DNA of 64,000 nt. Source: a virus. Its lineage: Duplodnaviria; Heunggongvirae; Uroviricota; Caudoviricetes. The notes under the pieces are model-generated. The model made no database searches. It worked only from the letters and a program-made list of their open reading frames with translations, and was not told the origin of the DNA. The stretch spans positions 70,193 through 134,192 of the IMG/VR virus record IMGVR_UViG_3300046507_000526. One strand, 5' to 3'. The position numbers and the translations under genes are program-made. Of this stretch, positions 5,473 through 50,001 are shown piece after piece; position 1 is the first letter of the stretch, and every line of letters starts with the position of its first letter.

Positions 5473-5484
5473 TTGGTAAATGAA

Positions 5485-6327
5485 ATGGACGACAACGTAC
5501 AATCTATTGAACAAATCCGTCACCTTGACTTTAACGCTCTCGGTGACCAGATGAAGATGTATGAGAAGAAGTACAACAGCGAATACCTGATGCCCGGTTT
5601 GCCGATTGTGATCAGATTCGATGGCAACGCTTTTCATACCTTTACGAAGCACATGCAAAAGCCTTACGACAAAGATCTTGCTCAGACTTTCCAGTGCACG
5701 GTCGATGATCTTATCAGGGAGTTGAATCCTGATCTTGCGTATCATCAAAGTGATGAGATCAGTCTGTTCTGGTTTAACCATGACACTACCAAGCAGTTGG
5801 CATTTGATGGCAAAGTACAGAAATGGCTCAGCGTATACGCAGCCAAATGTACAGCTATCTTTAATAGCTTCCTGCAAGGGTTCATGCCTGAAAGCTATTT
5901 GATGAGACCTGTGTTTGATGCCCGAGTTTTCCAGTTCCCACGCTGGGACTTTGCATACGACTATTTCGTGTGGCGTCAATGGGATGCTAGAAAGAATAGC
6001 GTAAGCATGGCTGCACATCACTACTTTACCAACTCAGAGCTTCACGGCGTGAATACTGCCGAGAAAATTGAGATGTTGCATAAGGTAGGCGTTAATTTTG
6101 CAGAGTATCCGGAATCTTTTAGACAAGGCACGTTCACCCGTAAGGTAAAACGTCTGATGCCTATTGATGACGAAACCTGGGCTCGTATCCCCGATAAGAA
6201 CAAACCTGAAAACAGATTTGTAGAACGTAGTTTCATCGGAGTAGTTAAAGGTGTACCTAAGCTTACTTCCCTGACAGTAAGCAACGGTAGTTTTCAAATC
6301 TTTCATTCTGACTATAGCGTTGCCTAA
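5485..6327 (+). CDS. Thg1-like protein (tRNA-His guanylyltransferase family 3'-5' nucleotidyltransferase)
   Basis: IVIRFDGNAFHTFTK and AYHQSDEISLFWF match Thg1 motifs vRiDGr.FhkF and gqSDEySFvf; FVWRQWDARKNS matches WRQ.D..NN; ORF track start 5473 is TTG, first ATG 5485. Confidence 0.8.
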   Translation: MDDNVQSIEQIRHLDFNALGDQMKMYEKKYNSEYLMPGLPIVIRFDGNAFHTFTKHMQKPYDKDLAQTFQCTVDDLIRELNPDLAYHQSDEISLFWFNHDTTKQLAFDGKVQKWLSVYAAKCTAIFNSFLQGFMPESYLMRPVFDARVFQFPRWDFAYDYFVWRQWDARKNSVSMAAHHYFTNSELHGVNTAEKIEMLHKVGVNFAEYPESFRQGTFTRKVKRLMPIDDETWARIPDKNKPENRFVERSFIGVVKGVPKLTSLTVSNGSFQIFHSDYSVA

Positions 6328-12471: not shown

Positions 12472-13773
12472 ATGGCCGTACTTACGATAGGTTCTTCGAA
12501 CCCTAAATTTTCCTGGATCATTTCCAAAAACCCTGCAACTATCCGGGAGAAAGGTGAGCCGTACAAAAAAGAGATCCGTCAAGGCAATGCATATGGCTGG
12601 TTTCTCACCAATGACCAGTCTTTTCGTCTCTGGTTTCGGGATAATCCTTTGACGTGTTCGTTTGCAGAAGGAATCAATGCGGAATTCGAGTATCTTGACC
12701 GCACTCGTTACGCTTCTCCTTACTTGCCGATTTCGTTGATCACGAACTGTCTGGCAACTGCATTCAAACAATCCCAAGAGGAAGATGAAGAAAAACCGTG
12801 GTCTGCATTTCTCACGACGACGGTAGAAATTCGAAGTGCTAGCATGCTTCGTCATCTCACAGAACACTTTAACGGGGCATTTGGATTTGACAAAGGGTAT
12901 AGCTTCACTGCTCAGAAATTAGCGGGCAACGCCTACGACGTCCATATTCAAGGCCCGAGCGTTCACAAGATGCTCAACGCTGCAATGGTTATTTTCCTGA
13001 TGTTCTGTGTTTCGACAAAAGGCATCTACATCAACCTCAAGGGGGATATCGTTGAGAAATACATTGCTGCAATTAACCGCATCAATGCTCCTTATTTTAT
13101 CCGGTATCTCTTTAAACGGAACGTGTTCTCAAATCGTGACACATTTCTTAAGAACAAATCGCTGCTTGATACGAACGAGATTTCGCTCTGGCACGGTGAC
13201 ACCCTTGCTCAGCGTAAAGAAGCTATCTTCCCCCACCTGGAAGGCGGAGCAATGCTTGTTGACATTGGGTGCGGTGAACTCAATTACACGCTCCCGCTCA
13301 GTTCGAAATATGAACAGGTCCTTGCGTTTGAAGCGGATGACGAACTCCGTGAAAACATGCTCGGAAAACTCAAAGGCCGAGAAGTCGAAAACGTTGTTCT
13401 CCGAGATGCTGCAACTCCCGAATCGATTGATGAGTGTTCCTCGCTCCTTAGCGGAGCAGACGTGCTCATCACAGAAGTTCTGGAGCACATTCCTCTTAAA
13501 GATGCAAGAGAGCTTGTTAATTCCGTTCTGAAAACTGAATTTAACAAGTTGGTTATCACGGTTCCGAACAAGGCTTTCAACGTGAACTATCTGATGGGAG
13601 AAGATGAGTTCCGTCACGATGATCACAAGTGGGAAATGACTCACGACGAATTTGAAGATTGGATTCTTCGTTCGAAATTCCCTGAATGGACTGAAGTTGA
13701 AATTAGAGGTATTGGCGATTCTGTCAACGGCACATTCACTTCCACGATGGTTGTTTTCTCCAAGAACAAATAA
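12472..13773 (+). CDS. hen1: Hen1-like RNA 3'-terminal 2'-O-methyltransferase (bacterial Hen1 architecture)
   Basis: C-terminal class I SAM MTase motifs MLVDIGCGELNY, VLAFEADDEL, DVLITEVLEHIP; about 430 aa with N-terminal non-MTase domain as in bacterial Hen1; directly upstream of pnkp. Confidence 0.7.
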   Translation: MAVLTIGSSNPKFSWIISKNPATIREKGEPYKKEIRQGNAYGWFLTNDQSFRLWFRDNPLTCSFAEGINAEFEYLDRTRYASPYLPISLITNCLATAFKQSQEEDEEKPWSAFLTTTVEIRSASMLRHLTEHFNGAFGFDKGYSFTAQKLAGNAYDVHIQGPSVHKMLNAAMVIFLMFCVSTKGIYINLKGDIVEKYIAAINRINAPYFIRYLFKRNVFSNRDTFLKNKSLLDTNEISLWHGDTLAQRKEAIFPHLEGGAMLVDIGCGELNYTLPLSSKYEQVLAFEADDELRENMLGKLKGREVENVVLRDAATPESIDECSSLLSGADVLITEVLEHIPLKDARELVNSVLKTEFNKLVITVPNKAFNVNYLMGEDEFRHDDHKWEMTHDEFEDWILRSKFPEWTEVEIRGIGDSVNGTFTSTMVVFSKNK

Positions 13774-13782
13774 GGACTTACC

Positions 13783-16203
13783 ATGAAAATTCAAACCAAG
13801 CTTCACACCGTGTTTATCCTGGTTGGCCCTTCTATGTGCGGCAAGTCGACGTTTTCCCTTGAGTTGCAGCACGCTCTAGGAGAACAGATGCGTAAAGCTG
13901 GACTGGGCGGTTCGTGTTCGATTCCCGTCATCAGTTCCGATGCGGAGCGAGAAAGTCTTTACGGCTACAAGAATCTCCATCGTTACGCACCTTTGATGAT
14001 GGAAGCCTCAGCTTCGGCCTTCGAAGTCCTTATGGCCAGGTACAAGGCAGCGATCTCGTTCCCGATCAATAGCGAATTCGTGATCATCGACACGACTGGC
14101 ATGAACGATACGTTCCGCAAGCAAATTCGTGAACTGGCCGAGGAAAAGGAATATCGTACTGAGTTGGTTACTTTCGAGTACTCCAACTATCAGTATTGGT
14201 CGGAATCCAATGCAGAAGAAAAGGTCATCGTCGAGTCGAGTGCCAAGCGATTCAAGCAGAGCGTCCTCCCGAATCTGGGGCGTAAAGATCACGACGGCTG
14301 TATCCGTGTGCGTGAACGTGACAAGAATTTCTGGCGTGACCTCGAAGTTGAGATTGAAGATCTGCAAAAGTACGCAGCTACTCAGTTGTATCTCAATAAG
14401 GACATGCAGATCAATATCATCGGAGATGTGCACGAACATGTCGAAGCGCTGGAAGAACTTCTTGTCAAACTCCCTGCTGGGAGCATCAACGTTATGGTGG
14501 GAGATTACATTGATAAGGGCAATGACACAGCAAATGCCATTGCTGCAGCTCGTAGGTTCCACGCTTCTGGTGGTATTATTGTTCACGGCAATCACGAGTC
14601 GTATGCTGTGAAACGTATCAAGGGAGAAATTAAGAACCCTGATCTGGAAATGGAAGCAAAGTACATGACTTCACTCAATGTACTGCTGAAAGATCCTGCG
14701 CTTGCAGCTGAGCTTGTAGATCTCTTCGACCTTTGTTCTGTACCTTTCCTCAAAATTCACGGTCATAACGTTCGTACCCTTTACGTTACCCATGCTCCTT
14801 GCGAGCAGAAATATCTGGGTAAGATGAGCCCTGCAGCACTTAAGGCTCAACGTAACCTGTACGGGGATCGTAAAGAAGACTACCGGAAGGCATATGACTT
14901 TATCTTTAAAGAAGCAGTTGGCAATTTCCCTTTGCATGTGTTTGGTCATGTTGCCCATAATGCTTCAAAGCTCGAATATCGGAACAAGATTTTTATCGAT
15001 ACCGGTGCTGTGTATGGCAATGCTCTTTCTGCTTTGTGCTATAAGGGAAACCGCTATTGGATCGAGTCTGTTAAGGCGACTGAAAAAGTAACGGTACATA
15101 AGGAACTTCAAAACTTCCTTACGCAACCTATTGCAGCTCCGGAAAAGCCCTTCAGCATCTACGACTATAAGTTGTCGCCTGATGATATGAAGTTCTTGAA
15201 GCGTACAATCGCAAACCGCGTTCAGTACATTTCCGGAACTATGGCACCAGCTCCGTCGACCAGCACTGAGATTGAAAGTCTGAAGGCTGGACTGGACTAT
15301 TTCCGTAACAAAGGCACGACGAAGGTAATTCTGGAACCGAAGTACATGGGTTCACGTTGCCAGATGTATCTGTTCCGTGGCCAACGCGAGAAATGCTTCC
15401 TGGTTTCCCGCAATGGTTTCAAGATTCGAATGAATGAAAAGCTTGACGCAATGCTTGACGCCGAGCTTGCGAAGTATGAAGCTTTGAGTCTTGATTTCTG
15501 GAATGAGTCAATGATTCTAGACGGCGAGCTTCTTCCTTGGACTACTCTCGGCGCTTCCTTGGTCGAAGAGCAATTCAAGGCGTATGAAGAGCTTGTACGT
15601 TACGAACTGGAAACTCTTGCAGGGGATGCGGAATTTGTGAAGCTTAACTTCAAGCAAAAGCCTGATTTATTAGCACGTCTGGCCGATCTGGCAACGTTCA
15701 AGAAAACCCTTGCAATCTACGGAGCAGAAGCCGATCCTTTCTATAAACCTTTTGCAATTCTGAAAATTGATAGCGAGGCCATGGGGAATAAATTTGAGGT
15801 TGCAGATTCGTTCGATACTCTCAACGAAGACGAATGTCGTGTCCTGCGTTTGGATAACGAATTCACTGACCAAACAGCGCAAGAATTCTTCGAAGCGTTG
15901 ACCGTAGATCGTAAAATGGAAGGCGTCGTCATTAAGCCTCTCGATGGTCCGGAAGATGTAGCACCGTACATGAAGGTTCGGAATGAGAATTATCTGACAC
16001 TTGTGTATGGCTACGACTATAAGAACCGTTACGAAGCTCTTTGCCGCCAGAAGAAGGTTGGTGGTAAACTACGTGTCTCCATTAAGGAGCATGATCTCGC
16101 AATGGCAATGCTTAATGTAGACAACGGCCCTGCCATGACTGAATTGATTGTGAAAATGATCTCACAACTCAATGAAGAAAAGGCTTTGGATCCTCGTCTG
16201 TAA
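13783..16203 (+). CDS. pnkp: bacterial-type polynucleotide kinase-phosphatase with C-terminal ligase-like adenylyltransferase domain (Pnkp)
   Basis: P-loop kinase VGPSMCGKST; calcineurin-like phosphoesterase GDVHEH...GDYIDKG...GNHES; C-terminal nucleotidyltransferase motif EPKYMGSRCQ; three-domain order matches bacterial Pnkp. Confidence 0.85.
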   Translation: MKIQTKLHTVFILVGPSMCGKSTFSLELQHALGEQMRKAGLGGSCSIPVISSDAERESLYGYKNLHRYAPLMMEASASAFEVLMARYKAAISFPINSEFVIIDTTGMNDTFRKQIRELAEEKEYRTELVTFEYSNYQYWSESNAEEKVIVESSAKRFKQSVLPNLGRKDHDGCIRVRERDKNFWRDLEVEIEDLQKYAATQLYLNKDMQINIIGDVHEHVEALEELLVKLPAGSINVMVGDYIDKGNDTANAIAAARRFHASGGIIVHGNHESYAVKRIKGEIKNPDLEMEAKYMTSLNVLLKDPALAAELVDLFDLCSVPFLKIHGHNVRTLYVTHAPCEQKYLGKMSPAALKAQRNLYGDRKEDYRKAYDFIFKEAVGNFPLHVFGHVAHNASKLEYRNKIFIDTGAVYGNALSALCYKGNRYWIESVKATEKVTVHKELQNFLTQPIAAPEKPFSIYDYKLSPDDMKFLKRTIANRVQYISGTMAPAPSTSTEIESLKAGLDYFRNKGTTKVILEPKYMGSRCQMYLFRGQREKCFLVSRNGFKIRMNEKLDAMLDAELAKYEALSLDFWNESMILDGELLPWTTLGASLVEEQFKAYEELVRYELETLAGDAEFVKLNFKQKPDLLARLADLATFKKTLAIYGAEADPFYKPFAILKIDSEAMGNKFEVADSFDTLNEDECRVLRLDNEFTDQTAQEFFEALTVDRKMEGVVIKPLDGPEDVAPYMKVRNENYLTLVYGYDYKNRYEALCRQKKVGGKLRVSIKEHDLAMAMLNVDNGPAMTELIVKMISQLNEEKALDPRL

Positions 16204-25257: not shown

Positions 25258-25633
25258 GATAGCAGTATTGTTCTCTAATGAGCACTACGACAGATACGAC
25301 AATTATCGTGAAATTATAGAAGCAATAACGGAGTGGACAGTTGTTTCTGAAGAAGAGTTTAAACTGTTAACCCAGTACAGTTACGAAAAAGGATTTCATA
25401 TACTTGAAGTTCCTTTGAATCAAACTGAGTTCATTCGAAATACAGTGACGACTCTTCTTGAAGAAGCCAAGGCTAAAAAAGAAGCGGAAGAAAAACGTAA
25501 GGCTAAACAAAAGGCCGAACGAGAAGCTAACCGCGCCAAACAAGCCGAGAGAGATCGTGCTAATAAGCTTAAGCAACTTGAGAAGTTACAGAAGGAACTA
25601 GGCTTAGCCCCGGAGAGCGACAATGTCACATAA
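25244..25633 (+). CDS. hypothetical protein with Lys/Glu-rich coiled-coil tail
   Basis: 129 aa ORF. Confidence 0.45.
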   Translation: MTDRKIAVLFSNEHYDRYDNYREIIEAITEWTVVSEEEFKLLTQYSYEKGFHILEVPLNQTEFIRNTVTTLLEEAKAKKEAEEKRKAKQKAEREANRAKQAERDRANKLKQLEKLQKELGLAPESDNVT

Positions 25634-26054
25634 ACAAGTAATCGTAATGCGCAAAGATCTCGGAATGCGCAAAGGGAAAATGATTGCTCAAGGTGCGCAT
25701 GCAAGTCTTGCGGCGATTTTGAATGCCTTTTCTGAAGAAGTGAGTACGTACCCGGAAGGGTATTTCCAAAATACGGGACCTTTTCAAAGAATAGAATACA
25801 CATTTACGGATCTTAAAGGTGGCGTTATTCCCTGGCTCACAGGCAACTTCAAAAAAGTGTGTGTATATGTAAATTCGGAAGAAGAACTGCTCGCACTCTA
25901 TGAAAAAGCAAAAGCTTCTGGTATCATTACTTCATTGATTACCGATTCAGGATTGACCGAGTTTAACGGAGTTCCGACCAATACCTGCATCGCGGTTGGT
26001 CCGGATTTTGAAGATAAGATAAATGAAGTGACCGGTGGGTTGCCACTTCTATAG
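25623..26054 (+). CDS. pth2: peptidyl-tRNA hydrolase, Pth2 family
   Basis: VIVMRKDLGMRKGKMIAQGAHAS and ITDSGLTEFNGVPTNTCIAVGPD closely follow Pth2 (PTRH2) motifs. Confidence 0.85.
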   Translation: MSHKQVIVMRKDLGMRKGKMIAQGAHASLAAILNAFSEEVSTYPEGYFQNTGPFQRIEYTFTDLKGGVIPWLTGNFKKVCVYVNSEEELLALYEKAKASGIITSLITDSGLTEFNGVPTNTCIAVGPDFEDKINEVTGGLPLL

Positions 26055-29295: not shown

Positions 29296-29694
29296 ATGTC
29301 CGCACTGAGAAAATGTAAAAAATGCGGCGAGCAATACCCAGAAGAACAGTACCCATTAGCAGGACGTAAAATTAAGCTTAGTTTTAGTGGAACGCCTTAT
29401 AGGAGACATATTTGTTCAAAGTGTTACTACTCGTCAAAAAATGAAGCCAGATTAGCAAAGCTTCAATTATGGAATGAATACAAAAAGACTCTTAGATGTA
29501 ATCGGTGTGGACTTGCTGATCACAGAGTATTAGACTTCCATCATAAAGATCCGTCCCAAAAAGAATTCAATCTAAGTATTATGGCAGGTCGTAATCCTAA
29601 TTTTCAAACTCTATTAGACGAAGTGTCAAAGTGTGAAGTGCTTTGTTCAAATTGTCATCGTATTCATCACTACGAAGAAAGGTTCAATAAGTGA
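29296..29694 (+). CDS. HNH homing endonuclease
   Basis: CGLADHRVLDFHHKD...LCSNCHRIHH HNH motif; inserted within tRNA region. Confidence 0.8.
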   Translation: MSALRKCKKCGEQYPEEQYPLAGRKIKLSFSGTPYRRHICSKCYYSSKNEARLAKLQLWNEYKKTLRCNRCGLADHRVLDFHHKDPSQKEFNLSIMAGRNPNFQTLLDEVSKCEVLCSNCHRIHHYEERFNK

Positions 29695-29957
29695 CAACTG
29701 TAGCAGATATCAAGCGTGTTCTTGAGCGGGTATGTAGCGATTACGTAGCCGACACAGTTGGATTCATCGATGGCCTCAATGCCAGGAACACCATGACTCT
29801 TGAAGGTTTTGACCTCGATAGTCTGGATCTTCTGGAAATGGCAATGTCTATTGAAGATGAATTCGATGTAGATTTAGATGACTACAAACTGCAGAAGATT
29901 TCGAATGAAACTCTTCTCCAGGATCTTCCTGAACTTCTCTATAAAGCTATCTTTTAA
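29691..29957 (+). CDS. acyl carrier protein-like small acidic protein (GTG start)
   Basis: LDSLDLLEMAMSIEDEFDVDL resembles ACP DSLD...EEEF phosphopantetheine-attachment helix. Confidence 0.45.
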   Translation: MTTVADIKRVLERVCSDYVADTVGFIDGLNARNTMTLEGFDLDSLDLLEMAMSIEDEFDVDLDDYKLQKISNETLLQDLPELLYKAIF

Positions 29958-30638: not shown

Positions 30639-30840
30639 AGTATTGGTAATAGCAATATTTTTATAGGAGTCTAGTATGTTTGCTCATCCGTATCTTTGGA
30701 TTACAGGTATTACAGTAGCTCTGATTGTATGGGCAAAGGTGGGTCCATGAGTTGGCCAGAAGCTTTCGTAGCCGCAGTCGTTGCAATTTGTCTGGCGTAT
30801 GTATTGACACACTGATTGTATACTTTTAAACTATCCGTAT

Positions 30841-30916
30841 GGGAACATAGCTCAATTGGCAGAGTAGCGGTCTTCAAAACCGTTGGTTTCGGGTTCGAGT
30901 CCCGATGTTCTCACCA
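30841..30916 (+). tRNA. tRNA with anticodon UCA (UGA reader; opal-suppressor / tRNA-Trp-like), CCA encoded
   Basis: canonical 76-nt cloverleaf: acceptor GGGAACA/TGTTCTC, D-arm GCTCAATTGGCAGAGT, anticodon stem GCGGT/ACCGT, loop CTTCAAA, T-arm TCGGGTTCGAGTCCCGA; resembles tRNA-Trp with C34 to U. Confidence 0.75.
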
Positions 30917-31040
30917 TTAACTAAGGAGTTACAAATGAAAAAGCAAAAACTATACGAGTTGTGAGTCATTGAGCCTCCGTAAGACATTCCTTACTTAAAA
31001 GAACCGTTGTATCTATATTTTTTACTTAAGGAAATTAATC

Positions 31041-31352
31041 ATGTCTTACATTTATTCAATCATTCGCAAAGATATCCCCCTCGCAGATCAAATTGTTCAG
31101 ACTGCGCATTCAGCTTTCCATGCTGGAAACGAAACCAAAGATTTGGATGGCAACGTGCCCTCCTTGATCTTGTTGGAAATTACCGACAAAGAATCTCTTC
31201 TGGCTTTGTCAAAGAAACTGTTTGACGCCCATATCCTGTATCACATGTTTTATGAGCCCGACGATGATTTTGGGTATACCTCGCTAACGACTCAGCCTCT
31301 AAACGAGGACCAACGCAAGCTCTTTAGCAATCTCCGTCTGTGGAGGCCGTAA
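31041..31352 (+). CDS. divergent Pth2-like paralog (putative peptidyl-tRNA hydrolase fold)
   Basis: IIRKDIPLADQIVQTAHSA and LILLEITDKESLLALSKK parallel the Pth2 motifs of ORF 25623. Confidence 0.45.
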   Translation: MSYIYSIIRKDIPLADQIVQTAHSAFHAGNETKDLDGNVPSLILLEITDKESLLALSKKLFDAHILYHMFYEPDDDFGYTSLTTQPLNEDQRKLFSNLRLWRP

Positions 31353-31582
31353 TGAGCGACAAGATCCTGATTTTTTATAATAAGGCGCATAATGCTGATT
31401 CCTCGATACCGCCGTGGGTCTGTCAATCTAAAGGTCAGACGCACAATGTCAATCACGTTACAATCGGAAGTGGTATTGGCTTCTCAACCAAGGAGAGACC
31501 CGACCACGCTAGTACCAAAGCGTGTCTCGTTGTCAAAGGTACGCTAACGATCAAAGACGGCGAAGCCAATATTACCCCGTAG
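31340..31582 (+). CDS. hypothetical protein
   Basis: 80 aa ORF. Confidence 0.4.
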   Translation: MEAVMSDKILIFYNKAHNADSSIPPWVCQSKGQTHNVNHVTIGSGIGFSTKERPDHASTKACLVVKGTLTIKDGEANITP

Positions 31583-31585
31583 TCT

Positions 31586-31594
31586 TGGTATAAG
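31586..31594 (+). promoter_or_regulatory. TGGTATAAG promoter motif
   Basis: conserved box. Confidence 0.4.
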
Positions 31595-31620
31595 AGAATT
31601 GTGAAAGAACATTTCTTTTA

Positions 31621-31688
31621 TAAACAATAGCTCAATCGGTAGAGCACACATCCATGTGAAGCTGGGGGTTCGAGTCCCCCTTGTTTTA
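31621..31688 (+). ncRNA. short tRNA-like gene (68 nt) with truncated anticodon arm; possible tRNA pseudogene or minimal tRNA
   Basis: acceptor TAAACAA/TTGTTTT (U1-U72 mismatch), D-arm GCTCAATCGGTAGAGC, T-arm GGGGGTTCGAGTCCCCC, but only 12 nt (CACATCCATGTG) where the 17-nt anticodon arm should be. Confidence 0.35.
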
Positions 31689-31691
31689 GTT

Positions 31692-31768
31692 GGGCCATTA
31701 GCTCAGTTGGTAAGAGCAGCGAACTCATAATTCGTTGGTCGCTGGTTCAAGTCCAGCATGGCCCACCA
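31692..31768 (+). tRNA. tRNA-Met or Ile2 (CAU), CCA encoded
   Basis: acceptor GGGCCAT/ATGGCCC, anticodon stem GCGAA/TTCGT, loop CTCATAA. Confidence 0.75.
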
Positions 31769-31780
31769 GCATTCCTCAAG

Positions 31781-31810
31781 CCCCTCTGAAGTTTAGAGGG
31801 GTTTTCTTTT
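31781..31810 (+). terminator. rho-independent terminator
   Basis: CCCCTCTGAAGTTTAGAGGGG hairpin plus T-run. Confidence 0.65.
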
Positions 31811-31853
31811 GCAGCACTTTTTGTAGCCCCTAAGCCTAATAGGCATAATCGAT

Positions 31854-33905
31854 ATGGAAACGAAGGAAATCAACGTGAGCGAAATTCAAGAAACCATCGC
31901 GGAATCGAATGCAGGCGCAGCTGTTTCGGCAGCTCCCGCAGTCACCCCGGCTACAGAACAGGTGGATCAGGCTGCTCTTATCGGTCAATCGATCAAGGCA
32001 GCTCTGGAAGGTCTCGGATTCAAGAAGCCTGAAGATCCCATCGTAGCAGCAGCAAAGGAAGAACTGCAGGAAGAACTGGCAATCGAGCATCGCCCTTCCG
32101 CAGACATCACCAAAACCCGTGCAGGGCAGATCAAAGTTTATATCCCCTTCGACATCCGTCAGGATATGAACGGAATCGGCCACATCATCGGTAGTGGTTA
32201 CCTTCGTCAGGACGTTAACGAGTTCAAGTATCTTTTGAACCCGGCGCAATTCGAAATCGGTAAGACCCTGGTCTCCGTCAAAGGCCTGGATGTGTTCCAC
32301 TCCAAAGCCAAGATTCAGGACTATCTCGAAGAACTCGAATGCTACCACGACGATGAAGAGTTCATCGGCCGTATCCGCAAAGAGATGACGAAAGTCCTGG
32401 AAGAAGTCAATGCTTTCTATGCGGCAACGCTTGGGAACATCGATAATCTTTCGCTGACCGACGAGTTTTCCTACGATGAACTCGTAGTTCTGCTCTCGCA
32501 AGCAGGGGTAAAGCTCGCCATCGAAGACGCTTACGCAACGATCTGTCTCAGCACGGTGACTGCAACTCAACGAGTCAGCATGATGGGCGGCCCGTACATC
32601 GAAGCAATCGGCACGATGCATGCCCGCAATGGCCAGGAAATTCAACAGTTCAAGCACACGTACTACTTCGGTGGATACGAAGGTAAGAAGTCGTTGAAGG
32701 AACTGGGCATCCAGCCGGTCATGAACAACCCGGAACTGAAGGCTAAGTTCCTGGAACGTGGCAAGCGCGCAGTTGAAGTTACCGCTTCGTCGTCGTATAT
32801 GTCCTACAAGGGTGACGTTATCCGTAAGGGCTGGTTCAGCGATTCGGCATTCCGTTCGACGGGTCGTGTGATGGTTGACTTCCAGGCTATGCGCGTCATG
32901 GATACGAACTACCGCAAGTATTTCGGCGGTACGCAGGATCGTGAATCGTACGGCTATACGCCGAAGTCGGAAACCGTGACTATCAGCGAAGACGTCTATC
33001 TGACGTTCTCTCCGTATGTCTACGGCTTTTCGTTCACTTCCAAGGTCTGGGGTGAAATGCTGGTCGACAACATCAGCCCGATTGTCTTCCGTGAAGATGC
33101 GTATGGCAAGCTGGTGATGGAAGAAAGTCAGAAGGAAATGATCGTGTCTCTGGTTGAAACCCAGCTGCAAGGTCGCAAGGTCGACATCATCGATGGCAAG
33201 GGTGGTGGTACGATTTTCCTGCTGGCAGGCGAACCGGGTACCGGCAAGACGCTCACTGCAGAAGTTACGGCAGAGCATCTGAAGCGTCCGTTGTACATGG
33301 TTGGCGTCGGTGAACTCGGTACGAGCGCATCGGAGCTGGAAGAAAATCTCCGTCAGGTTCTGGACATTGCCTCGACGTGGAATGCAGTGCTGCTGCTGGA
33401 TGAATGCGACATCTTCATGGAAGCCCGTACGGATAGCAATATCCAGCGGAATGCCATGGTCGGTGTTTTCCTTCGTCTGCTGGAATATTACCAAGGTGTT
33501 CTGTTCCTGACGTCGAATCGTGCTAACAACATCGACAAGGCGTTCTACTCCCGTATCAGCATGGCGATTAACTTCCCTGCGCTGACTACGGCAGACCGTG
33601 TTCAAATCTGGGAAAACAACCTCAGTATGAATTCGGTGAACCTCACGGACACTGAAATTCTTTACCTTGCTGAAAACTACGAGATCAATGGTCGTCAGAT
33701 CAAGACGGCTACTCGTAACGCTTCGGCACTGGCACTGAAGGGTAAGCGTTCGGTGAACATCCAGGACTTCCAGTTGATTCTCAACAAGGGTCTTGAGTTC
33801 CAGAAGGCAGTGTTCTCGCGTGGCGCTACTAACGACATGTCGTTGCTCGGCATGCACAAAGACGCACACGTTGTGGCTGACGTCGAATTCAAAGACGTTA
33901 AGTAA
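31854..33905 (+). CDS. AAA+ ATPase (classic clade) with large N-terminal domain
   Basis: Walker A GEPGTGKT, Walker B LLLDECD, SRH TSNRANNIDKAFYSR; GC-richer codon usage. Confidence 0.75.
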   Translation: METKEINVSEIQETIAESNAGAAVSAAPAVTPATEQVDQAALIGQSIKAALEGLGFKKPEDPIVAAAKEELQEELAIEHRPSADITKTRAGQIKVYIPFDIRQDMNGIGHIIGSGYLRQDVNEFKYLLNPAQFEIGKTLVSVKGLDVFHSKAKIQDYLEELECYHDDEEFIGRIRKEMTKVLEEVNAFYAATLGNIDNLSLTDEFSYDELVVLLSQAGVKLAIEDAYATICLSTVTATQRVSMMGGPYIEAIGTMHARNGQEIQQFKHTYYFGGYEGKKSLKELGIQPVMNNPELKAKFLERGKRAVEVTASSSYMSYKGDVIRKGWFSDSAFRSTGRVMVDFQAMRVMDTNYRKYFGGTQDRESYGYTPKSETVTISEDVYLTFSPYVYGFSFTSKVWGEMLVDNISPIVFREDAYGKLVMEESQKEMIVSLVETQLQGRKVDIIDGKGGGTIFLLAGEPGTGKTLTAEVTAEHLKRPLYMVGVGELGTSASELEENLRQVLDIASTWNAVLLLDECDIFMEARTDSNIQRNAMVGVFLRLLEYYQGVLFLTSNRANNIDKAFYSRISMAINFPALTTADRVQIWENNLSMNSVNLTDTEILYLAENYEINGRQIKTATRNASALALKGKRSVNIQDFQLILNKGLEFQKAVFSRGATNDMSLLGMHKDAHVVADVEFKDVK

Positions 33906-37353: not shown

Positions 37354-37699
37354 AGCTAACGGAGTTATTCTTCGATACGCTTTGCTTAAGACTGTGAACC
37401 GCCTGACTTTCGATATTATCGAACAGGCGGAATTCACACGGTATAGAGGTGAGGACGATGGTCCTTACTTCAAGTTTGTCGCATCAAATGGCTATGAGGT
37501 GTATTCCCGTAGCCGTATGGACATTCAGACGGAACGTCTTTGGCTTCTGGGAGCTAAAGAGCAGGACCGCTCTGGAAGCATGGTATTTTCCTCGAATGAT
37601 AAAAGAGATAAAGCTTATTCTGAATTCAAGACTGCCTTGAACGAATGGGCAGAAACGAATTTTGGAGTTGCACAAGATGTCAATGACGCTCGATCCTAA
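37328..37699 (+). CDS. hypothetical protein
   Basis: 123 aa ORF. Confidence 0.45.
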
Positions 37700-38339
37700 A
37701 GATATCCGCCTGGACTCGTTTGGTCATCAGCATGGTGGTCAAAGAGTAGGTATGGATACAGGTGTTAGGGCTACCCACCTACCTAGTGGGATTTCAACTG
37801 AATGTAACGATGACCGCAGCCAGCATCGTAATAAAGAAAAAGCCTTAAAAGAATTGGCTGAGTTGGTTAATGTTTGGAGCGAAAGTCTAGTTCGGAAGGC
37901 TACTCTTTTTGAAGTTTTGGATTACGGTTGGGCCTGCGGGTTTGATATTAAGCAAACTCTAGATGATTGTAAAGATGCCGGATACGAGGTACCAGAGGGA
38001 TTTGTAAAACGATATTGGACTGGCTGGGACCAGCAAGCCGAAAAAGACCTGCAACACAGCGATGATGTAGCAGTCGACAAGTTCGCAGCGATGATGAAAG
38101 TGAAGCTTGCCAAGTCTCGTGAGAAGGGTCGTGGTGGCTGGGACGATCCGGAACAATGCAGCGTTGAATTCTTGGCCAAGCTTCTAGTCGAGCATGTGGC
38201 TAAAGGGGATCCCGTGGACGTTGCAAATCTAGCTATGATGTTGACACTGAGAGAAGCTACCTCTGAATCGCTTAAAAACGCATTTGCCGATGAAGCTATG
38301 AAGATGATGGAGCGAGAAGGCTGGTCTTCAGGTGGCTAA
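37677..38339 (+). CDS. GGQ-motif peptidyl-tRNA hydrolase domain protein (ArfB/ICT1/RF-1 domain-like) with extra C-terminal domain
   Basis: [45 protein letters not shown] matches release-factor GGQ catalytic domain; no codon-recognition domains. Confidence 0.75.
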
Positions 38340-42840: not shown

Positions 42841-43015
42841 GCAACAAAACGACTGGGCTCACGAGGCCTAGTCTGTTTTGGAAAGGTCTTGAAGGCCTTT
42901 TCAAAGCAGTGTATAATTGCTTCTCTTTGGGGTTAAAGCTTTAAGGTGAAGCAACGGACTTTTAATCCGTAGAATAGGGGTCAGTACCCTGTAGCCCTAC
43001 CAATAATTTCTAATA

Positions 43016-48609: not shown

Positions 48610-50001
48610 ATGAAAGCAAATAAAATCCTTATCGGGGATAGTTACAAATATTCTCATGCCCCTCAGTACCCCCTAGGTACAGTAGGCATGCAGTCGTACG
48701 TAGAAGCTCGGAAAAACAACAGTGGATTCCCGATTGATAAAGTTTCATTTTTCGGACTGCAGGCTTTTATTAAAGAATATTTGCTAGACCCAATCACTCG
48801 GGATGACCTCAAAGAAGCGGAAGAAGTAACAAGGGCACAGGGAATTCCTTTTAATAAACAGGGATTTCAAGATATCATCGAAAAACATGATGGATATTAC
48901 CCTGCCGTTATCAGTGCGGTACCTGAAGGTAGTCAAGTAGAAATCGGGAACGTGCTGCTCACTGCGGAGTCTACTGATAGCTTGCTTCCTTGGGTAGAAA
49001 GCTTTCTAGAAACCCCTTTGCTTCAAGCAGCTTGGTATGGAACTACCGTTGCTACGATTTCACGTCATTGTAAAGAAGTGATTTTTGAGTTTCTAAAAGA
49101 AACCAGTGATGTGCCTATCAACGAGATTCCCTGGAAATTAGCCGATTTTGGATACCGTGGAAATAGTTCTCAAGAAAGTGCGGCTATTGCAGGGGCGGCG
49201 CATTTGACTAACTTTCTCGGGACCGACACTATCAATGCAATGCTGTTTGCTCGCAGGTACTACGGCGCTTCGCTTGAGCATTTAGGGTATAGCGTCCCTG
49301 CCAGCGAACACTCCACTACTACTAGTTGGGGCAAAGATGGGGAACGTGATTTTTACAGTCACGCCATTAAAACTTATGCAGGGAAATACCCGATTGTCAG
49401 TCTAGTAGCGGACTCATATGATATCGATAACTCTATTCAGAATATTTTTGGTAAAGACCTGAAAGAACAGATCGTAAACTGCGGATCTACCGTAGTTATT
49501 CGATTGGACAGCGGAGAACCTGTGGAAGGAGTTACCAAGGCACTTGGATATCTTGACGCAGCATTCGGATCAGTTCCAAATAGTAGGGGGTTTAAAGTCC
49601 TCAAAAACGTACGTGTACTTCAAGGAGACGGCGTAAATCCTACCTCTATTAAGAGAATTCTTACGGCTATGAAGTTGCAAGGCTTTAGCGCGGAAAATAT
49701 CGTGTTCGGTATGGGGGGTGGGTTACATTCCGCGTGGGATAGAGACACTTTTAGTTTTGCAATGAAGTGTTCCGCTATCAACGTAGAGGGTCAGTGGAGA
49801 GATGTGTATAAAGACCCTAAAGCTGGCGGTAAGACAAGTAAGCGGGGCAGACTTGCGCTTATTGAAGACGATGGTAAACTGGTGACCATCCGAGAAGATG
49901 CTTTGATGGGTCGAACTAGTCTTCTGGAACCTGTGTACGCCAATGGCGTTCTTATCCGTGACCAGTCGTTTAACGATGTTCGCAGGCTGGCTGCTATCTA
50001 A
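48610..50001 (+). CDS. nadV: nicotinamide phosphoribosyltransferase (Nampt/NadV)
   Basis: LIGDSYKYSH and ADFGYRGNSSQESAAIAGAAH match Nampt motifs. Confidence 0.85.
   Translation: MKANKILIGDSYKYSHAPQYPLGTVGMQSYVEARKNNSGFPIDKVSFFGLQAFIKEYLLDPITRDDLKEAEEVTRAQGIPFNKQGFQDIIEKHDGYYPAVISAVPEGSQVEIGNVLLTAESTDSLLPWVESFLETPLLQAAWYGTTVATISRHCKEVIFEFLKETSDVPINEIPWKLADFGYRGNSSQESAAIAGAAHLTNFLGTDTINAMLFARRYYGASLEHLGYSVPASEHSTTTSWGKDGERDFYSHAIKTYAGKYPIVSLVADSYDIDNSIQNIFGKDLKEQIVNCGSTVVIRLDSGEPVEGVTKALGYLDAAFGSVPNSRGFKVLKNVRVLQGDGVNPTSIKRILTAMKLQGFSAENIVFGMGGGLHSAWDRDTFSFAMKCSAINVEGQWRDVYKDPKAGGKTSKRGRLALIEDDGKLVTIREDALMGRTSLLEPVYANGVLIRDQSFNDVRRLAAI

What the first reader, a model, noticed from the sequence alone, without database searches (positions are those of the whole stretch)
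30841..30916. Canonical 76-nt tRNA with anticodon UCA (UGA decoder)
This is a perfectly regular cloverleaf: 7-bp acceptor, GCTCAATTGGCAGAGT D-arm, anticodon loop CTTCAAA, encoded CCA.

It is too short for tRNA-Sec, and its 7-bp acceptor is wrong for tRNA-Sec. It is very close to a tRNA-Trp with C34 changed to U. It should therefore insert an amino acid, probably Trp, at UGA.

Genes in this window use TGA as a genuine stop (the primase, for example). So either UGA is partially suppressed or read through, or UGA is recoded in genes outside the window, as in code-switching phages.

The GGQ release-factor-domain protein at 37677 and the possible CCA/CAU tRNA-like gene at 31621 may be relevant.
Basis: partly seen in the sequence, partly recalled or inferred. 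Interest (0 to 1): 0.7.

Follow-up and report, generated by a model that had tools for sequence, protein, structure and literature searches.

The report
Suppressor tRNA gating a tRNA-hydrolase gene
The tRNA is a real UGA-reading suppressor in a phage that otherwise uses the standard genetic code, and its likely job is to read one matching in-frame UGA in a tiny upstream reading frame next to it, which would switch on a peptidyl-tRNA-hydrolase-like gene; the same tRNA-and-stop-codon pairing recurs in many large phages whose suppressor tRNAs had no known target.

Summary
Bases 30841-30916 encode a canonical 76-nt tRNA with anticodon UCA, and it is not tRNA-Sec.

The code-switching reading is not supported:
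- TGA ends about 30% of the window's genes, often in ATGA overlaps.
- Late genes sampled in a related phage are intact under the standard code.

What I found instead:
- Nineteen bases after the tRNA lies a 15-codon leader ORF, MKKQKLYEL-TGA-VIEPP-TAA.
- In about ten distinct related sequences, the tRNA anticodon and this in-frame stop always match: UCA with TGA, CUA with TAG.
- The stop is always followed by three codons, Pro-Pro and a stop the tRNA cannot read.
- The 14 nt after that terminal stop pair with the ribosome-binding site and start codon of the next gene.
- That gene encodes a 103-aa protein with a Pth2 (peptidyl-tRNA hydrolase 2) fold.

Inferred mechanism: read-through by the suppressor brings a ribosome onto the base of the hairpin and unmasks the gene.

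Distant cultured phages carry the matching stop inside the 5' end of a Pth2-family gene. Arash, ME3, XacN1 and Xoo-sp13 have TAG and a CUA tRNA; Atu_ph07 has TGA and a UCA tRNA.

Everything is computational. The inserted amino acid and the purpose of the switch are unknown.

The parts
30804..30832 (+). Sigma-70-like promoter TTGACA-17 nt-TAAACT, 8 nt upstream of the tRNA
   Evidence: Consensus scan gives 10 of 12 matches. The same TTGAC(A/T)-N17-TAAA(C/A)T motif sits in front of the orthologous tRNA in L003, L005, L006, L047, L048 and L050 (sequences). That the tRNA and the leader mRNA are co-transcribed is an inference.
30841..30916 (+). Opal suppressor tRNA: anticodon UCA, A73, encoded CCA
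   Evidence: ARAGORN; Rfam RF00005 at 68.3 bits; orthologues carry UCA or CUA and show compensatory stem changes.
30935..30982 (+). Leader ORF: AAGGAG ribosome-binding site, then ATG AAA AAG CAA AAA CTA TAC GAG TTG TGA GTC ATT GAG CCT CCG TAA (MKKQKLYEL-stop-VIEPP-stop)
   Evidence: Read. It is conserved in about ten distinct relatives, always with 3 codons plus Pro-Pro between the internal and terminal stops, and with synonymous variation at the first post-stop codon (GTC/GTT/GTA/GTG).
30962..30964 (+). In-frame TGA of the leader, the proposed cognate codon of the tRNA
   Evidence: It co-varies perfectly with the suppressor anticodon: TGA with UCA, TAG with CUA. It is the only TGA-3 codons-Pro-Pro-stop motif in the window.
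30979..31049 (+). Hairpin that sequesters the initiation region of the next gene. The 5' arm is the last base of the Pro codon, the terminal TAA and the next 14 nt or so. The 3' arm is the ribosome-binding site UAAGGA plus AUGUCUUAC.
   Evidence: The RNAfold minimum-energy and centroid structures agree. All ten sequences give the same architecture, with the partners of the RBS/AUG always at +3..+16 from the terminal stop. Duplex energy is -16.4 kcal/mol, better than all 5889 local background windows.
31041..31352 (+). Gene for a 103-aa Pth2-fold protein (divergent peptidyl-tRNA hydrolase 2 family)
   Evidence: AlphaFold2 pLDDT 93.4. The top 13 Foldseek PDB hits are all Pth2/Bit1, with TM 0.71-0.83 (normalised to the query) and E from 1e-6 to 4e-4. 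A profile search of PDB sequences hits Pth2 chains at E 0.03-0.8. There is no Pfam hit for the window protein itself, but fused homologues reach PF01981 at or just above its cut-off.
31352..31582 (+). 76-aa ORF overlapping the previous gene's stop (TAATG), so probably translationally coupled; function unknown
   Evidence: Only 10 homologues, all in this phage family. The AF2 model is an all-beta protein with pLDDT 88.7 and has no significant PDB fold match.
31621..31688 (+). tRNA-like RNA whose anticodon arm is reduced to a short hairpin; no encoded CCA
   Evidence: Rfam RF00005 at 52.4 bits with 6 model positions of the anticodon loop missing. It is conserved in relatives with compensatory changes in the mini-stem.
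31692..31768 (+). tRNA with anticodon CAU. That it is of the Ile2 type is judged from my memory of the E. coli tRNA-Ile2 sequence and was not tested.
   Evidence: ARAGORN; Rfam 73.6 bits.
31778..31812 (+). Intrinsic terminator closing the operon
   Evidence: 12-bp stem AAGCCCCTCTGA/TTAGAGGGGTTT followed by a T-rich tail.

Best explanation
The tRNA at 30841-30916 is a functional opal (UGA) suppressor. It is one half of a two-part translational switch, not a tool for genome-wide recoding.

One operon, running from the promoter at 30804 to the terminator at about 31810, encodes the following in order:
- the suppressor tRNA
- a 15-codon leader ORF
- a Pth2-fold gene
- a coupled 76-aa ORF
- an anticodon-less tRNA-like RNA
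- a tRNA(CAU)

Proposed mechanism:
1. Ribosomes start on the leader, which has a strong ribosome-binding site (RBS), and meet UGA at codon 10.
2. If a release factor wins, they terminate 17 nt upstream of a hairpin. In that hairpin the 14 nt or so following the leader's terminal UAA pair with the RBS and AUG of the Pth2-like gene. The gene stays masked.
3. If the charged suppressor wins, the ribosome translates Val-Ile-Glu-Pro-Pro and reaches the terminal UAA, which sits at the base of the hairpin.
4. Termination after Pro-Pro is slow (established knowledge). The paused ribosome therefore holds the 5' arm unwound, exposes the RBS and AUG, and the Pth2-like gene and its coupled ORF are translated.

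What is shown:
- the tRNA, the leader and the hairpin
- the codon-anticodon co-variation
- the Pth2 fold
- the recurrence in other phages

What is inferred:
- that read-through happens
- that it activates rather than represses
- that the tRNA and mRNA share a transcript
- the biological purpose

My best guess at the purpose is that synthesis of a tRNA-directed hydrolase is tied to the presence of working phage tRNA, either as a readiness timer or gate, or as feedback on suppressor activity. Placing the stop after a very short nascent peptide may make that one site unusually easy to suppress, so the phage's ordinary TGA stops are little affected. That last point is inference from the published minigene and peptidyl-tRNA drop-off work, recalled from memory.
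For: 1. Co-variation within the phage family.
- UCA with TGA: the window; L051-L056, which are six other samples of the same phage; L047 and L049; L048; L057; L058.
- CUA with TAG: L003/L004; L005/L007/L045; L006; L046; L050.
- There are no mismatches.
- The match holds even where one or two ORFs separate the tRNA from the leader (L005, L006).
- The terminal stop of the leader is never the codon the tRNA can read.

2. The post-stop codons look translated. The spacing is fixed at 5 codons, Pro-Pro is invariant, and the first codon varies synonymously (GTC/GTT/GTA/GTG).

3. The hairpin.
- Each of ten sequences, folded independently, pairs its RBS and AUG with positions +3..+16 after the terminal stop.
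- The arms co-vary: UCCUUA:UAAGGA, CUCUUU:AAAGAG, CCUUAAAU:AUUUAAGG, GUAAGACAU:AUGUCUUAC, GUAAACG:CGUUUAC.
- Those nucleotides are at least 95% paired when the RNA is free or a ribosome is modelled at the internal stop. They are 40-63% unpaired with a ribosome modelled at the terminal stop.
- Duplex energy ranks in the top 0.5% of local windows in 7 of 10 sequences and in the top 6-8% in the other 3.

4. The trees disagree. The tRNA tree and the Pth2-like protein tree are discordant, so matched tRNA-leader pairs have been kept through either repeated switches or exchange of the whole cassette.

5. The same coupling appears in distant cultured phages, with the matching stop inside the 5' end of a Pth2-family gene.
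- Arash: ML-TAG, with a tRNA-CUA nearby.
- ME3: MT-TAG, with a tRNA-CUA 450 nt upstream.
- XacN1: MK-TAG. Xoo-sp13: MKK-TAG. In both, a good RBS precedes the upstream ATG, not the annotated one. XacN1 has CUA suppressors whose targets its authors could not find (PMC5852040). Xoo-sp13 has two unannotated matches, 85% identical, to the Arash CUA tRNA; I did not read their anticodons.
- Atu_ph07: MIGEHF-TGA, and its single suppressor is UCA (PMC6102473).

6. No alternative target was found. The window has no TGA-interrupted long ORF, and no gene has TGA in the window but TAG in all CUA-type relatives.
Against: - Nothing is experimental. Read-through, the pause at Pro-Pro-stop and the unmasking are all predictions.
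- RNAalifold found no consensus structure on the MAFFT alignment, because the helices shift register between subfamilies. The covariation is therefore argued from individual folds, not from a formal test.
- In three sequences (L047, L048, L057) the arm-to-arm duplex is only in the top 6-8% of background windows. The modelled unmasking is partial: 0.40-0.63, not 1.
- The tRNA and leader are physically linked. The family-level association could trace back to as little as one switch plus recombination. Independence rests mainly on the distant cultured phages.
- About 117 kb of the window phage's genome, assuming it is about 181 kb like its relative, was not available, so additional UGA targets cannot be excluded.
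- The polarity, with the gene on when the suppressor works, has no obvious physiological rationale yet.
- An invariant Asp aligns with the catalytic Lys of archaeal Pth2 in the one HMM alignment I have. The protein may not be a conventional hydrolase.
Confidence: 0.75

Rival explanations
1. Code-switching phage. The tRNA reassigns UGA to an amino acid in late (structural or lysis) genes that lie outside the window, as in the stop-codon-recoded phages of gut microbiomes.
For: Phages that recode a stop usually carry the matching suppressor tRNA, and recoding can be confined to late genes (bioRxiv 10.1101/2021.08.26.457843, listed; PMC13037316). The window holds only early and metabolic genes, so its own late genes were never seen.
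Against: TGA ends about 30% of window genes. In a CUA-type relative (the contig of L003, with a second contig at 87% primase identity whose suppressor was not seen), 10 kb of late genes are uninterrupted and end in TAA, TGA or TAG: portal 632 aa, RNA-polymerase-beta-like 1125 aa, a virion protein and a tail-fibre-like protein. A further 50 kb or so of relatives shows no conserved in-frame TAG or TGA in real genes. The UCA-type loci L048, L057 and L058 also use TGA as an ordinary stop. A switch between amber and opal among close relatives would be very costly if hundreds of codons depended on it, but it is cheap if only one leader codon does.
Confidence: 0.05
2. A general or incidental suppressor. 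The tRNA causes low-level read-through of many stop codons, for example to make extended protein isoforms, to buffer nonsense mutations or to disturb the host. On this view the adjacent leader is not its purpose.
For: Suppressor tRNAs with no identified target have been reported in standard-code jumbo phages (PMC5852040, PMC6102473). One CUA-type genome has a TAG replacing a Tyr codon 21 codons before the end of an otherwise identical gene (L042:6261), which a suppressor might make tolerable.
Against: This does not explain the perfect anticodon-to-stop match in a conserved mini-ORF, the fixed 5-codon spacing, the Pro-Pro-stop, or the hairpin over the next gene's start. It also does not explain the recurrence of a matching stop at the 5' end of Pth2-family genes in unrelated phages. 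Stop-codon usage shows no avoidance of the suppressible codon. Extra, secondary targets remain possible.
Confidence: 0.1
3. A substitute tRNA-Trp. With U34 it reads UGG by wobble. It would replace a host tRNA-Trp that is scarce or is cut by an anticodon nuclease, and UGA suppression would be a side effect.
For: The window has no tRNA-Trp(CCA). All of the phage's tRNAs for two-codon NNR boxes carry U34. The phage carries tRNA-repair enzymes, namely Pnkp, Hen1 and a Thg1-like protein. The best DNA matches are tRNA-Trp genes.
Against: The orthologous tRNA in sister phages has anticodon CUA, which cannot read UGG. L005 and L007 lack a tRNA-Trp and still carry CUA. A73 and G1-C72 differ from the relatives' genuine tRNA-Trp, which has A1-U72 and G73.
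Confidence: 0.03
4. Ribosome-independent sensing, like a T-box. The tRNA anticodon would pair directly with the UGA or UAG in the leader RNA and remodel the hairpin without translation of the mini-ORF.
For: Codon-anticodon co-variation is also the hallmark of T-box riboswitches, and some of those control translation initiation (established knowledge).
Against: The mini-ORF has its own strong ribosome-binding site and ATG in every member. The post-stop segment keeps its frame, its length and its amino acids, with synonymous changes. In distant phages the stop lies inside the protein-coding frame itself, which needs real decoding. Rfam reports only tRNAs in 30700-31800 and no T-box.
Confidence: 0.04

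Closest known systems
Leader-peptide translational attenuation of the ermC / cat / cmlA type
   Same: A short upstream ORF with its own ribosome-binding site. A hairpin masks the RBS and start codon of the downstream gene. A ribosome arrested at a defined place in the leader opens the hairpin and turns translation on.
   Different: Here the input is not an antibiotic or an amino acid. It is whether an in-frame stop codon is read through by a dedicated, phage-encoded suppressor tRNA. The arrest site is a Pro-Pro-stop that is reached only after read-through. I found no natural example of this in the searched literature.
prfB (RF2) autoregulation through an in-frame UGA
   Same: An early in-frame stop codon in a translation-related gene acts as a sensor. 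The outcome of the competition at that codon sets how much protein is made.
   Different: prfB uses a +1 frameshift and senses RF2 itself. Here the competitor is a suppressor tRNA and the frame is kept. The codon can be UGA or UAG depending on the tRNA, so no particular release factor is being sensed.
Suppressor tRNAs of stop-codon-recoded phages (TAG or TGA reassigned in late genes)
   Same: A phage-encoded tRNA with anticodon CUA or UCA, in a phage that infects a standard-code host.
   Different: Those phages have hundreds of in-frame reassigned stops and low coding density under code 11. This family shows neither in the roughly 100 kb examined, and only one cognate in-frame stop was found.
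Engineered amber-suppression gene switches, in which a TAG is placed in a leader peptide or a gene and expression depends on an orthogonal suppressor tRNA
   Same: Identical logic: expression of the target needs translation beyond an inserted stop codon (PMC6412442).
   Different: Those are man-made and are controlled by an unnatural amino acid. This one is natural, conserved and carried by phages.
Pth2 (archaeal/eukaryotic-type peptidyl-tRNA hydrolase, PF01981)
   Same: The regulated 103-aa protein has the Pth2 fold (TM 0.8), the R-x-D-[LI] first strand and a D-x-G-x-T-like motif. Fused homologues pass the Pfam threshold.
   Different: The window protein does not hit PF01981 itself. The Lys of the GK motif appears to be replaced by an invariant Asp. 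A canonical PTH2 gene exists separately at 25623-26054.

Membership tests
Canonical elongator tRNA (Rfam RF00005) | Cloverleaf with 7-bp acceptor, 4-bp D, 5-bp anticodon and 5-bp T stems, a 7-nt anticodon loop with U33, and conserved D-loop and T-loop bases | tested here: met
   68.3 bits against a gathering score of 29, full-length match; ARAGORN; stems read; compensatory changes in orthologues.
tRNA-Sec (bacterial) | 8-bp acceptor plus 5-bp T stem, a long variable arm, a 6-bp D stem, and a length of about 90-100 nt | tested here: not met
   76 nt, 7-bp acceptor, 5-nt variable loop. Only RF00005 was reported at the gathering threshold.
Bacterial tRNA-Trp | Anticodon C34-C35-A36 | tested here: not met
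   The anticodon is U34-C35-A36, and sister phages have C34-U35-A36 in the orthologous tRNA.
Bacterial tRNA-Trp | Discriminator G73 (identity element, from my recollection of the E. coli and B. subtilis TrpRS literature) | tested here: not met
   A73 in the window tRNA. G73 occurs in the UCA tRNAs of L048, L057 and L058. The relatives' genuine tRNA-Trp(CCA) has A1-U72 and G73.
Bacterial tRNA-Trp | Charging with tryptophan | not testable with these tools
   Needs aminoacylation assays or mass spectrometry of the read-through peptide.
Stop-codon-recoded (code-switching) phage | Conserved genes interrupted by many in-frame copies of the reassigned stop, and low coding density under code 11 | tested here: not met
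   The window is 83-88% coding under code 11. There are no TGA-interrupted long ORFs. A relative's late genes are intact. The late genes of the window's own phage were not available.
Leader-peptide translational attenuator | Short ORF with its own ribosome-binding site immediately upstream of the regulated gene | tested here: met
   AAGGAG-N6-ATG, 15 codons, ending 58 nt before the gene. Present in every relative.
Leader-peptide translational attenuator | RNA structure that masks the downstream RBS and start codon, with its 5' arm lying where a leader-translating ribosome sits | tested here: met
   the same hairpin in 10 of 10 sequences, with co-varying arms.
Leader-peptide translational attenuator | Ribosome arrest in the leader that changes expression of the downstream gene | not testable with these tools
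   Pro-Pro-stop is invariant and is known to slow termination. The arrest and its effect need toeprinting or reporter assays.
T-box riboswitch | Specifier loop plus the conserved T-box sequence that pairs with the tRNA's NCCA end | tested here: not met
   No T-box family was reported by Rfam for 30700-31800. I saw no conserved UGGN bulge in the intergenic sequences.
Pth2 peptidyl-tRNA hydrolase (PF01981) | Pth2 alpha/beta fold | tested here: met
   The model has pLDDT 93.4. The top 13 Foldseek PDB hits are Pth2/Bit1, with TM 0.71-0.83.
Pth2 peptidyl-tRNA hydrolase (PF01981) | Sequence match to the family profile | tested here: inconclusive
   No Pfam or NCBIfam hit for the window protein. The PDB profile search hits Pth2 chains at E 0.03-0.8. 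Among fused homologues, XacN1 (25.3 bits), Xoo-sp13 (29.5) and Hallingskeid (23.5) pass the PF01981 cut-off of 23, while RAS14 (21.6) falls just below it.
Pth2 peptidyl-tRNA hydrolase (PF01981) | Catalytic residues (Lys of the GK motif and Asp of the D-x-G-x-T motif; recalled from the S. solfataricus Pth2 work) and hydrolase activity | tested here: inconclusive
   A D-x-G-x-T-like motif (D75/76, G78, T80) is conserved. In the HMM alignment the Lys position is taken by the invariant Asp16. Activity was not tested.

The most novel reading that the evidence does not exclude
In tRNA-rich phages that use the standard code, the 'orphan' suppressor tRNAs would be regulatory RNAs rather than decoding tools. 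Each would form, with a stop-gated Pth2-family gene, a conserved two-component switch. The switch would read out the state of the translation apparatus, meaning phage tRNA supply and charging against release-factor activity, and set the level of a tRNA-directed hydrolase. The gate takes one of two forms: a stop at codons 3-7 of the gene, or a separate leader plus hairpin as in this window. This would be a natural, trans-acting, tRNA-based gene switch present in many jumbo-phage lineages. It would explain suppressor tRNAs whose targets earlier genome papers could not find.
Probability: 0.5. Interest if true: 0.9.

Novelty: new variant of a known kind. Interest (0 to 1): 0.85.

Why it matters
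Suppressor tRNAs turn up regularly in large phages that do not recode their genomes. The papers on XacN1 and Atu_ph07 looked for, or speculated about, targets and identified none.

This analysis proposes a concrete, conserved target: an in-frame stop at the 5' end of a Pth2-family gene, or in a leader in front of one, that always matches the phage's suppressor anticodon.

If it holds, four things follow:
- It is a natural counterpart of the amber-suppression switches built in synthetic biology.
- It adds a new input, a dedicated tRNA reading a stop codon, to leader-peptide attenuation.
- It corrects the annotated starts of these genes in several reference phage genomes.
- It links phage tRNA sets to control of peptidyl- or aminoacyl-tRNA turnover during infection.

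The idea can be tested directly, because cultured phage-host pairs carry the module: Acinetobacter phage ME3, Salmonella phage Arash, Agrobacterium phage Atu_ph07 and Xanthomonas phage XacN1.

Tried and rejected
- **tRNA-Sec:** rejected on structure.
- **Near relatives among deposited phage genomes:** none by megablast. The closest cultured relatives by DNA polymerase are Arash (48%) and Vibrio phages (44%).
- **Recovering the window's own contig:** exact-protein look-ups found only 2-3 kb Logan contigs. An exact tRNA pattern found nothing in IMG/VR. One IMG/VR scan was wasted on a pattern with a spacing error.
- **Reaching late genes:** I walked upstream of the primase in a relative, got 10 kb of structural genes and found no recoding.
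- **All-against-all tblastn for stops inside conserved genes:** almost every hit was a spurious antisense ORF. The exceptions were one TAG-for-Tyr near the end of a gene in L042 and a possible TGA near the N-terminus of a minus-strand gene in L035, L041 and L042; neither was followed up.
- **A gene ending in TGA in the window and TAG in all CUA relatives (programmed C-terminal extension):** none.
- **Avoidance of the suppressible stop codon:** none evident.
- **RNAalifold on a MAFFT alignment of the leader region:** I used per-sequence folds, ribosome-occupancy constraints and a duplex-energy background instead.
- **The CCUCC of the Pro-Pro codons acting as an anti-Shine-Dalgarno element:** not supported by the folds. 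The anti-RBS lies after the terminal stop.
- **The 76-aa ORF:** no family and no fold match.
- **Suppressor tRNAs of CBB, XbC2, RsoM2USA and LR756511:** not located. BLAST with the Arash tRNA did not reach them.
- **Bacterial homologues of the Pth2-like protein (about 42% identity):** they lie in ordinary chromosomal contexts without tRNAs and were not pursued.
Full report
**1. The observation**

ARAGORN finds 20 tRNA genes in the window. One of them lies at 30841-30916 (+), is 76 nt long and has anticodon tca. Rfam's general tRNA model matches it full-length at 68.3 bits against a gathering score of 29, and nothing else reaches threshold there.

The sequence gives:
- a 7-bp acceptor stem
- a 4-bp D stem
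- the anticodon arm GCGGU-CUUCAAA-ACCGU
- a 5-nt variable loop
- a 5-bp T stem
- discriminator A73 and an encoded CCA

It is therefore a regular elongator-type tRNA that should read UGA, and its architecture rules out tRNA-Sec.

The A36-A37-A38 loop is the kind normally modified at position 37 in tRNAs that read U-starting codons. That point is established knowledge and was not tested here.

**2. Context**

The window is phage DNA with 45% G+C and nearly all genes on the plus strand. It carries:
- replication and nucleotide-metabolism genes
- a large tRNA array
- an unusual number of RNA and translation-maintenance genes

The maintenance genes are a Thg1-like enzyme, Hen1 plus Pnkp, a canonical PTH2, a GGQ-only release-factor-domain protein, and Ro60 with a Y-RNA-like element.

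No close relative exists among deposited phage genomes. The nearest cultured phages by DNA polymerase are Salmonella phage Arash (48%) and some Vibrio phages.

Uncultured relatives in IMG/VR share 65-87% protein identity and the same gene order. One relative's contig of 181,435 bp closes on itself, so the genome is about 181 kb and the window is about a third of it.

**3. Is UGA recoded?**

In the window, no.
- Plus-strand ORFs cover 83-88% of the sequence under code 11.
- About 30 of about 95 end in TGA, and in roughly 16 cases that TGA overlaps the next start codon as ATGA or GTGA.
- Their C-termini line up with orthologues that end in TAA or TGA.
- No mini-ORF-TGA-long-ORF arrangement exists on the coding strand.

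The window holds no structural genes. I therefore walked 30 kb upstream of the primase in the contig of L003, a relative that carries the CUA form of the tRNA; a second contig (87% primase identity, suppressor not seen) covered the same stretch. There the portal (632 aa), an RNA-polymerase-beta-like protein (1125 aa), a head-decoration-like virion protein and a tail-fibre-like protein are all uninterrupted. Both TAG and TGA serve as ordinary stops.

Code-switching is thus not supported for the family. For the window's own late genes it remains untested.

**4. The orthologous tRNA switches between opal and amber**

At the syntenic position, about 1.5 kb upstream of an AAA-ATPase gene, the IMG/VR relatives carry a tRNA that aligns base for base with the window's, with compensatory changes in every stem. 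Its anticodon, however, is CUA.

Three of these relatives also have a separate and quite different tRNA-Trp(CCA), with A1-U72 and G73. The window lacks one, but so do two of the CUA-type genomes. The suppressor is therefore not simply the phage's tRNA-Trp.

The closest DNA matches of the window tRNA are tRNA-Trp genes. A search with its D-arm and T-arm pattern instead returns mostly tRNA-Lys genes with A73. Among the UCA versions, some have G73 and others A73. The amino acid it carries is not settled. On the model below it need not matter.

**5. The leader**

Nineteen bases after the CCA, and behind an AAGGAG ribosome-binding site, lies ATG AAA AAG CAA AAA CTA TAC GAG TTG TGA GTC ATT GAG CCT CCG TAA at 30935-30982.

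The relatives have the same element with TAG in place of TGA. For example, L003 has ATG AAG CTC GAT AAG CTC TAG GTT ACG AAG CCT CCG TAA.

A metagenome scan seeded with the downstream protein, plus exact-protein look-ups, added more members.

| tRNA anticodon | Leader | Source |
|---|---|---|
| UCA | MKKQKLYEL-TGA-VIEPP-TAA | window; L051-L056 (six further samples of the same phage) |
| UCA | MKFKHDKMYER-TGA-VIVPP-TAG | L047, L049 |
| UCA | MNYKSEKLFER-TGA-VIVPP-TAG | L048 |
| UCA | MNYKSEKMYER-TGA-VLVPP-TAG | L057 |
| UCA | MNHKSEKMYER-TGA-VIVPP-TAA | L058 |
| CUA | MKLDKL-TAG-VTKPP-TAA | L003, L004 |
| CUA | MKLNKL-TAG-VTKPP-TAA | L005, L007, L045, L050 |
| CUA | MKPNKL-TAG-VTKPP-TAA | L006 |
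| CUA | MTL-TAG-ISKPP-TAA | L046 |

Four regularities stand out:
- There is no mismatch between anticodon and in-frame stop.
- The terminal stop is never the suppressible codon.
- The distance from the internal to the terminal stop is always five codons, and the last two are always Pro-Pro.
- The first post-stop codon varies synonymously (GTC, GTT, GTA, GTG), as expected if it is translated.

The match holds where one or two ORFs separate the tRNA from the leader (L005, L006).

The tRNA tree and the tree of the downstream protein disagree. The window's protein is closest to that of a CUA-type genome, and L003's is closest to a UCA-type genome. Matched pairs have therefore been kept through repeated switches or through exchange of the cassette.

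**6. The hairpin**

I folded the stretch from the leader to the next gene separately for each distinct sequence: eight with the folding tool and all ten with ViennaRNA. Every one gives the same architecture.

The last base of the second Pro codon, the terminal stop and the next 14 nt or so pair with the ribosome-binding site and start codon of the downstream gene.
- In the window the pairs are GUAAGACAU with AUGUCUUAC and UCCUUA with UAAGGA.
- The arms change together across subfamilies: CUCUUU:AAAGAG, CCUUAAAU:AUUUAAGG, GUAAACG:CGUUUAC.
- In the minimum-energy structures the partners of the RBS and AUG always fall at +3 to +16 from the first base of the terminal stop.

I also modelled a ribosome as an unpaired stretch.
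- With the internal stop in the A site, the RBS and AUG nucleotides stay at least 95% paired.
- With the terminal stop in the A site, they become 40-63% unpaired in all ten sequences.

The arm-to-arm duplex is stronger than 99.5% of local 22-nt windows in seven sequences and lies in the top 6-8% in three.

RNAalifold on an automatic alignment found nothing, because the helices shift register between subfamilies. The covariation argument therefore rests on individual folds.

A sigma-70-like promoter at 30804-30832 is conserved in the relatives. A strong intrinsic terminator at 31778-31812 closes the unit. Between them lie the tRNA, the leader, two genes, a tRNA-like RNA and a tRNA(CAU).

**7. 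The regulated gene**

The 103-aa product of 31041-31352 has no Pfam or NCBIfam hit. An alignment of 42 homologues gives a confident model with pLDDT 93.4. Its top 13 PDB neighbours are all Pth2-type peptidyl-tRNA hydrolases or human Bit1, with TM up to 0.83 and E around 1e-6. A profile search of PDB sequences also puts Pth2 chains on top at weak E-values.

In that alignment an invariant Asp occupies the position of the Pth2 GK-motif Lys, so the chemistry may differ.

A canonical PTH2 gene is present elsewhere in the window, at 25623-26054.

The next ORF encodes 76 aa and overlaps the stop as TAATG. It is family-specific and has no recognisable fold.

**8. The same coupling in distant, cultured phages**

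tblastn with the Pth2-like protein finds homologues at 27-37% identity in many jumbo phages. In these the matching stop sits inside the gene itself, a few codons after an ATG that has a good ribosome-binding site.

| Phage | 5' end of the Pth2-family gene | Suppressor tRNA |
|---|---|---|
| Salmonella phage Arash | ML-TAG-NKHWIYTFVRYDLP... | tRNA-CUA nearby, mis-annotated as tRNA-Phe |
| Acinetobacter phage ME3 | MT-TAG-IHENKKHTYVFVRRDIP... | tRNA-CUA 450 nt upstream |
| Xanthomonas phage XacN1 | MK-TAG, four codons before the annotated ATG | CUA; authors could not find a target (PMC5852040) |
| Xanthomonas phage Xoo-sp13 | MKK-TAG, four codons before the annotated ATG | two unannotated matches, 85% identical, to the Arash CUA tRNA; anticodon not read |
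| Ralstonia phage RsoM2USA | ML-TAG | not located |
| Pectobacterium phage CBB | MAQ-TAG | not located |
| Xanthomonas phage XbC2 | MAH-TAG | not located |
| Uncultured 595-kb phage LR756511 | MTH-TAG | not located |
| Agrobacterium phage Atu_ph07 | MIGEHF-TGA-INYEE...RIYSIVRDDLEMTAGK | one suppressor, reported as UCA (PMC6102473) |

In Atu_ph07 the annotated start is an internal Met that removes the conserved first strand. RaK2 and Hallingskeid have no such stop.

The Arash and ME3 suppressors have quite different bodies from the window's. The link is therefore between a suppressor function and a Pth2-family gene, not between two co-inherited sequences.

**9. Interpretation**

The best-supported reading is that the UCA tRNA is a dedicated activator of the adjacent Pth2-like operon.
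- Read-through of the leader's UGA carries a ribosome five codons further, to a Pro-Pro-stop at the foot of the hairpin.
- There it pauses and frees the initiation region.
- The more distant phages achieve the same dependence more simply, by putting the stop in the gene.

Known systems that work in a similar way are ermC-type leader attenuation and prfB's in-frame UGA. Engineered amber switches use exactly this logic (PMC6412442). My literature searches found no natural case.

Why a phage would tie a tRNA hydrolase to a suppressor tRNA is unknown. I consider three possibilities:
- a gate or timer, so the enzyme appears only once phage tRNAs are functional
- feedback that limits suppressor activity
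- a read-out of tRNA against release-factor balance

**10. Limits**

- Everything is computational.
- The window phage's late genes were not seen.
- The number of independent anticodon switches within the family is uncertain.
- The formal covariation test failed for alignment reasons.
- The direction of regulation is inferred from the geometry of the hairpin.

Noticed in passing
window 31621-31688 (+); also L005:9739-9811, L045:6589-6661, L046:1273-1345, L048:6588-6656: A tRNA-like RNA (Rfam tRNA, 52 bits) has normal acceptor, D and T arms, but its anticodon arm is reduced to a 4-5 bp stem with a 4-8 nt loop, and no CCA is encoded. It is conserved in the same operon across relatives, with compensatory changes in the mini-stem (CACAU/AUGUG against CACAA/UUGUG). 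It cannot decode, and its function is unknown.
   Followed up: partly
window 42929-42999 (+): A tRNA-Lys(UUU) with an unusual T loop (UCAGUAC) is found by Rfam (45.6 bits) but missed by ARAGORN. In three relatives a tRNA-Trp(CCA) sits next to it; the window has none.
   Followed up: partly
window 12472-16203 and 5473-6327 (+): A bacterial-type RNA repair pair is present: Hen1 N-terminal domain, and Pnkp with kinase, phosphatase and ligase domains. There is also a Thg1-like tRNA-His guanylyltransferase homologue. Together they suggest the phage expects damage to its tRNAs.
   Followed up: no
window 60930-61043 and 61700-63322 (+): A Ro60/TROVE protein gene is preceded by a YrlA-like Y RNA match (44.9 bits, below the gathering score of 69; E 7e-8).
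   Followed up: partly
window 37662-38339 (+): A 225-aa protein in which only the N-terminal 70 residues match release factors (the GGQ domain), with scores far below the RF1, RF2, PrfH and ArfB cut-offs. It is a codon-independent GGQ protein, possibly a ribosome-rescue factor. No link to the suppressor was tested.
   Followed up: partly
window 25623-26054 (+): A canonical PTH2 peptidyl-tRNA hydrolase (PF01981, E 1e-30) lies inside the tRNA array, in addition to the divergent leader-controlled paralogue. It has no in-frame stop.
   Followed up: partly
window 31836-33869 (-): A 677-aa ORF runs antisense to the whole AAA-ATPase gene (31854-33905). It is also open in L003 and L004 but broken by several stops in L005-L007, so it is probably a chance product of codon usage.
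   Followed up: partly
L042:6259-6261 (minus strand), the genome of IMGVR_UViG_3300046507_000371: In a genome that carries the CUA suppressor, a TAG replaces a Tyr codon 21 codons before the end of a 251-aa gene. The flanks are 100% identical to L041. It may be a nonsense polymorphism that the suppressor makes tolerable.
   Followed up: no
GenBank records OQ632216 (Arash), KU574722 (CBB), OP292654 (XbC2), AP018399 (XacN1), MN047793 (Xoo-sp13), MF403008 (Atu_ph07), MG752970 (RsoM2USA): These records contain likely annotation errors. The Arash tRNA at 49173-49247 is labelled tRNA-Phe, but ARAGORN reads anticodon CUA. The Pth2-family genes are started at internal Met codons, split, or left unannotated, because of the in-frame stop near the true start.
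   Followed up: partly
window 29691-29957 and 57538-57966 (+): There is a small acyl-carrier-like protein (PP-binding, E 3e-5) and a protein of PHROG 1460, annotated 'tRNA amidotransferase'. Both are further translation- or metabolism-related accessory genes.
   Followed up: no
window 63579-63680 (+): A weak match to the gammaproteobacterial rimP leader (33 bits, gathering score 47, E 0.014). It is possibly a hint about the host group, or chance.
   Followed up: no
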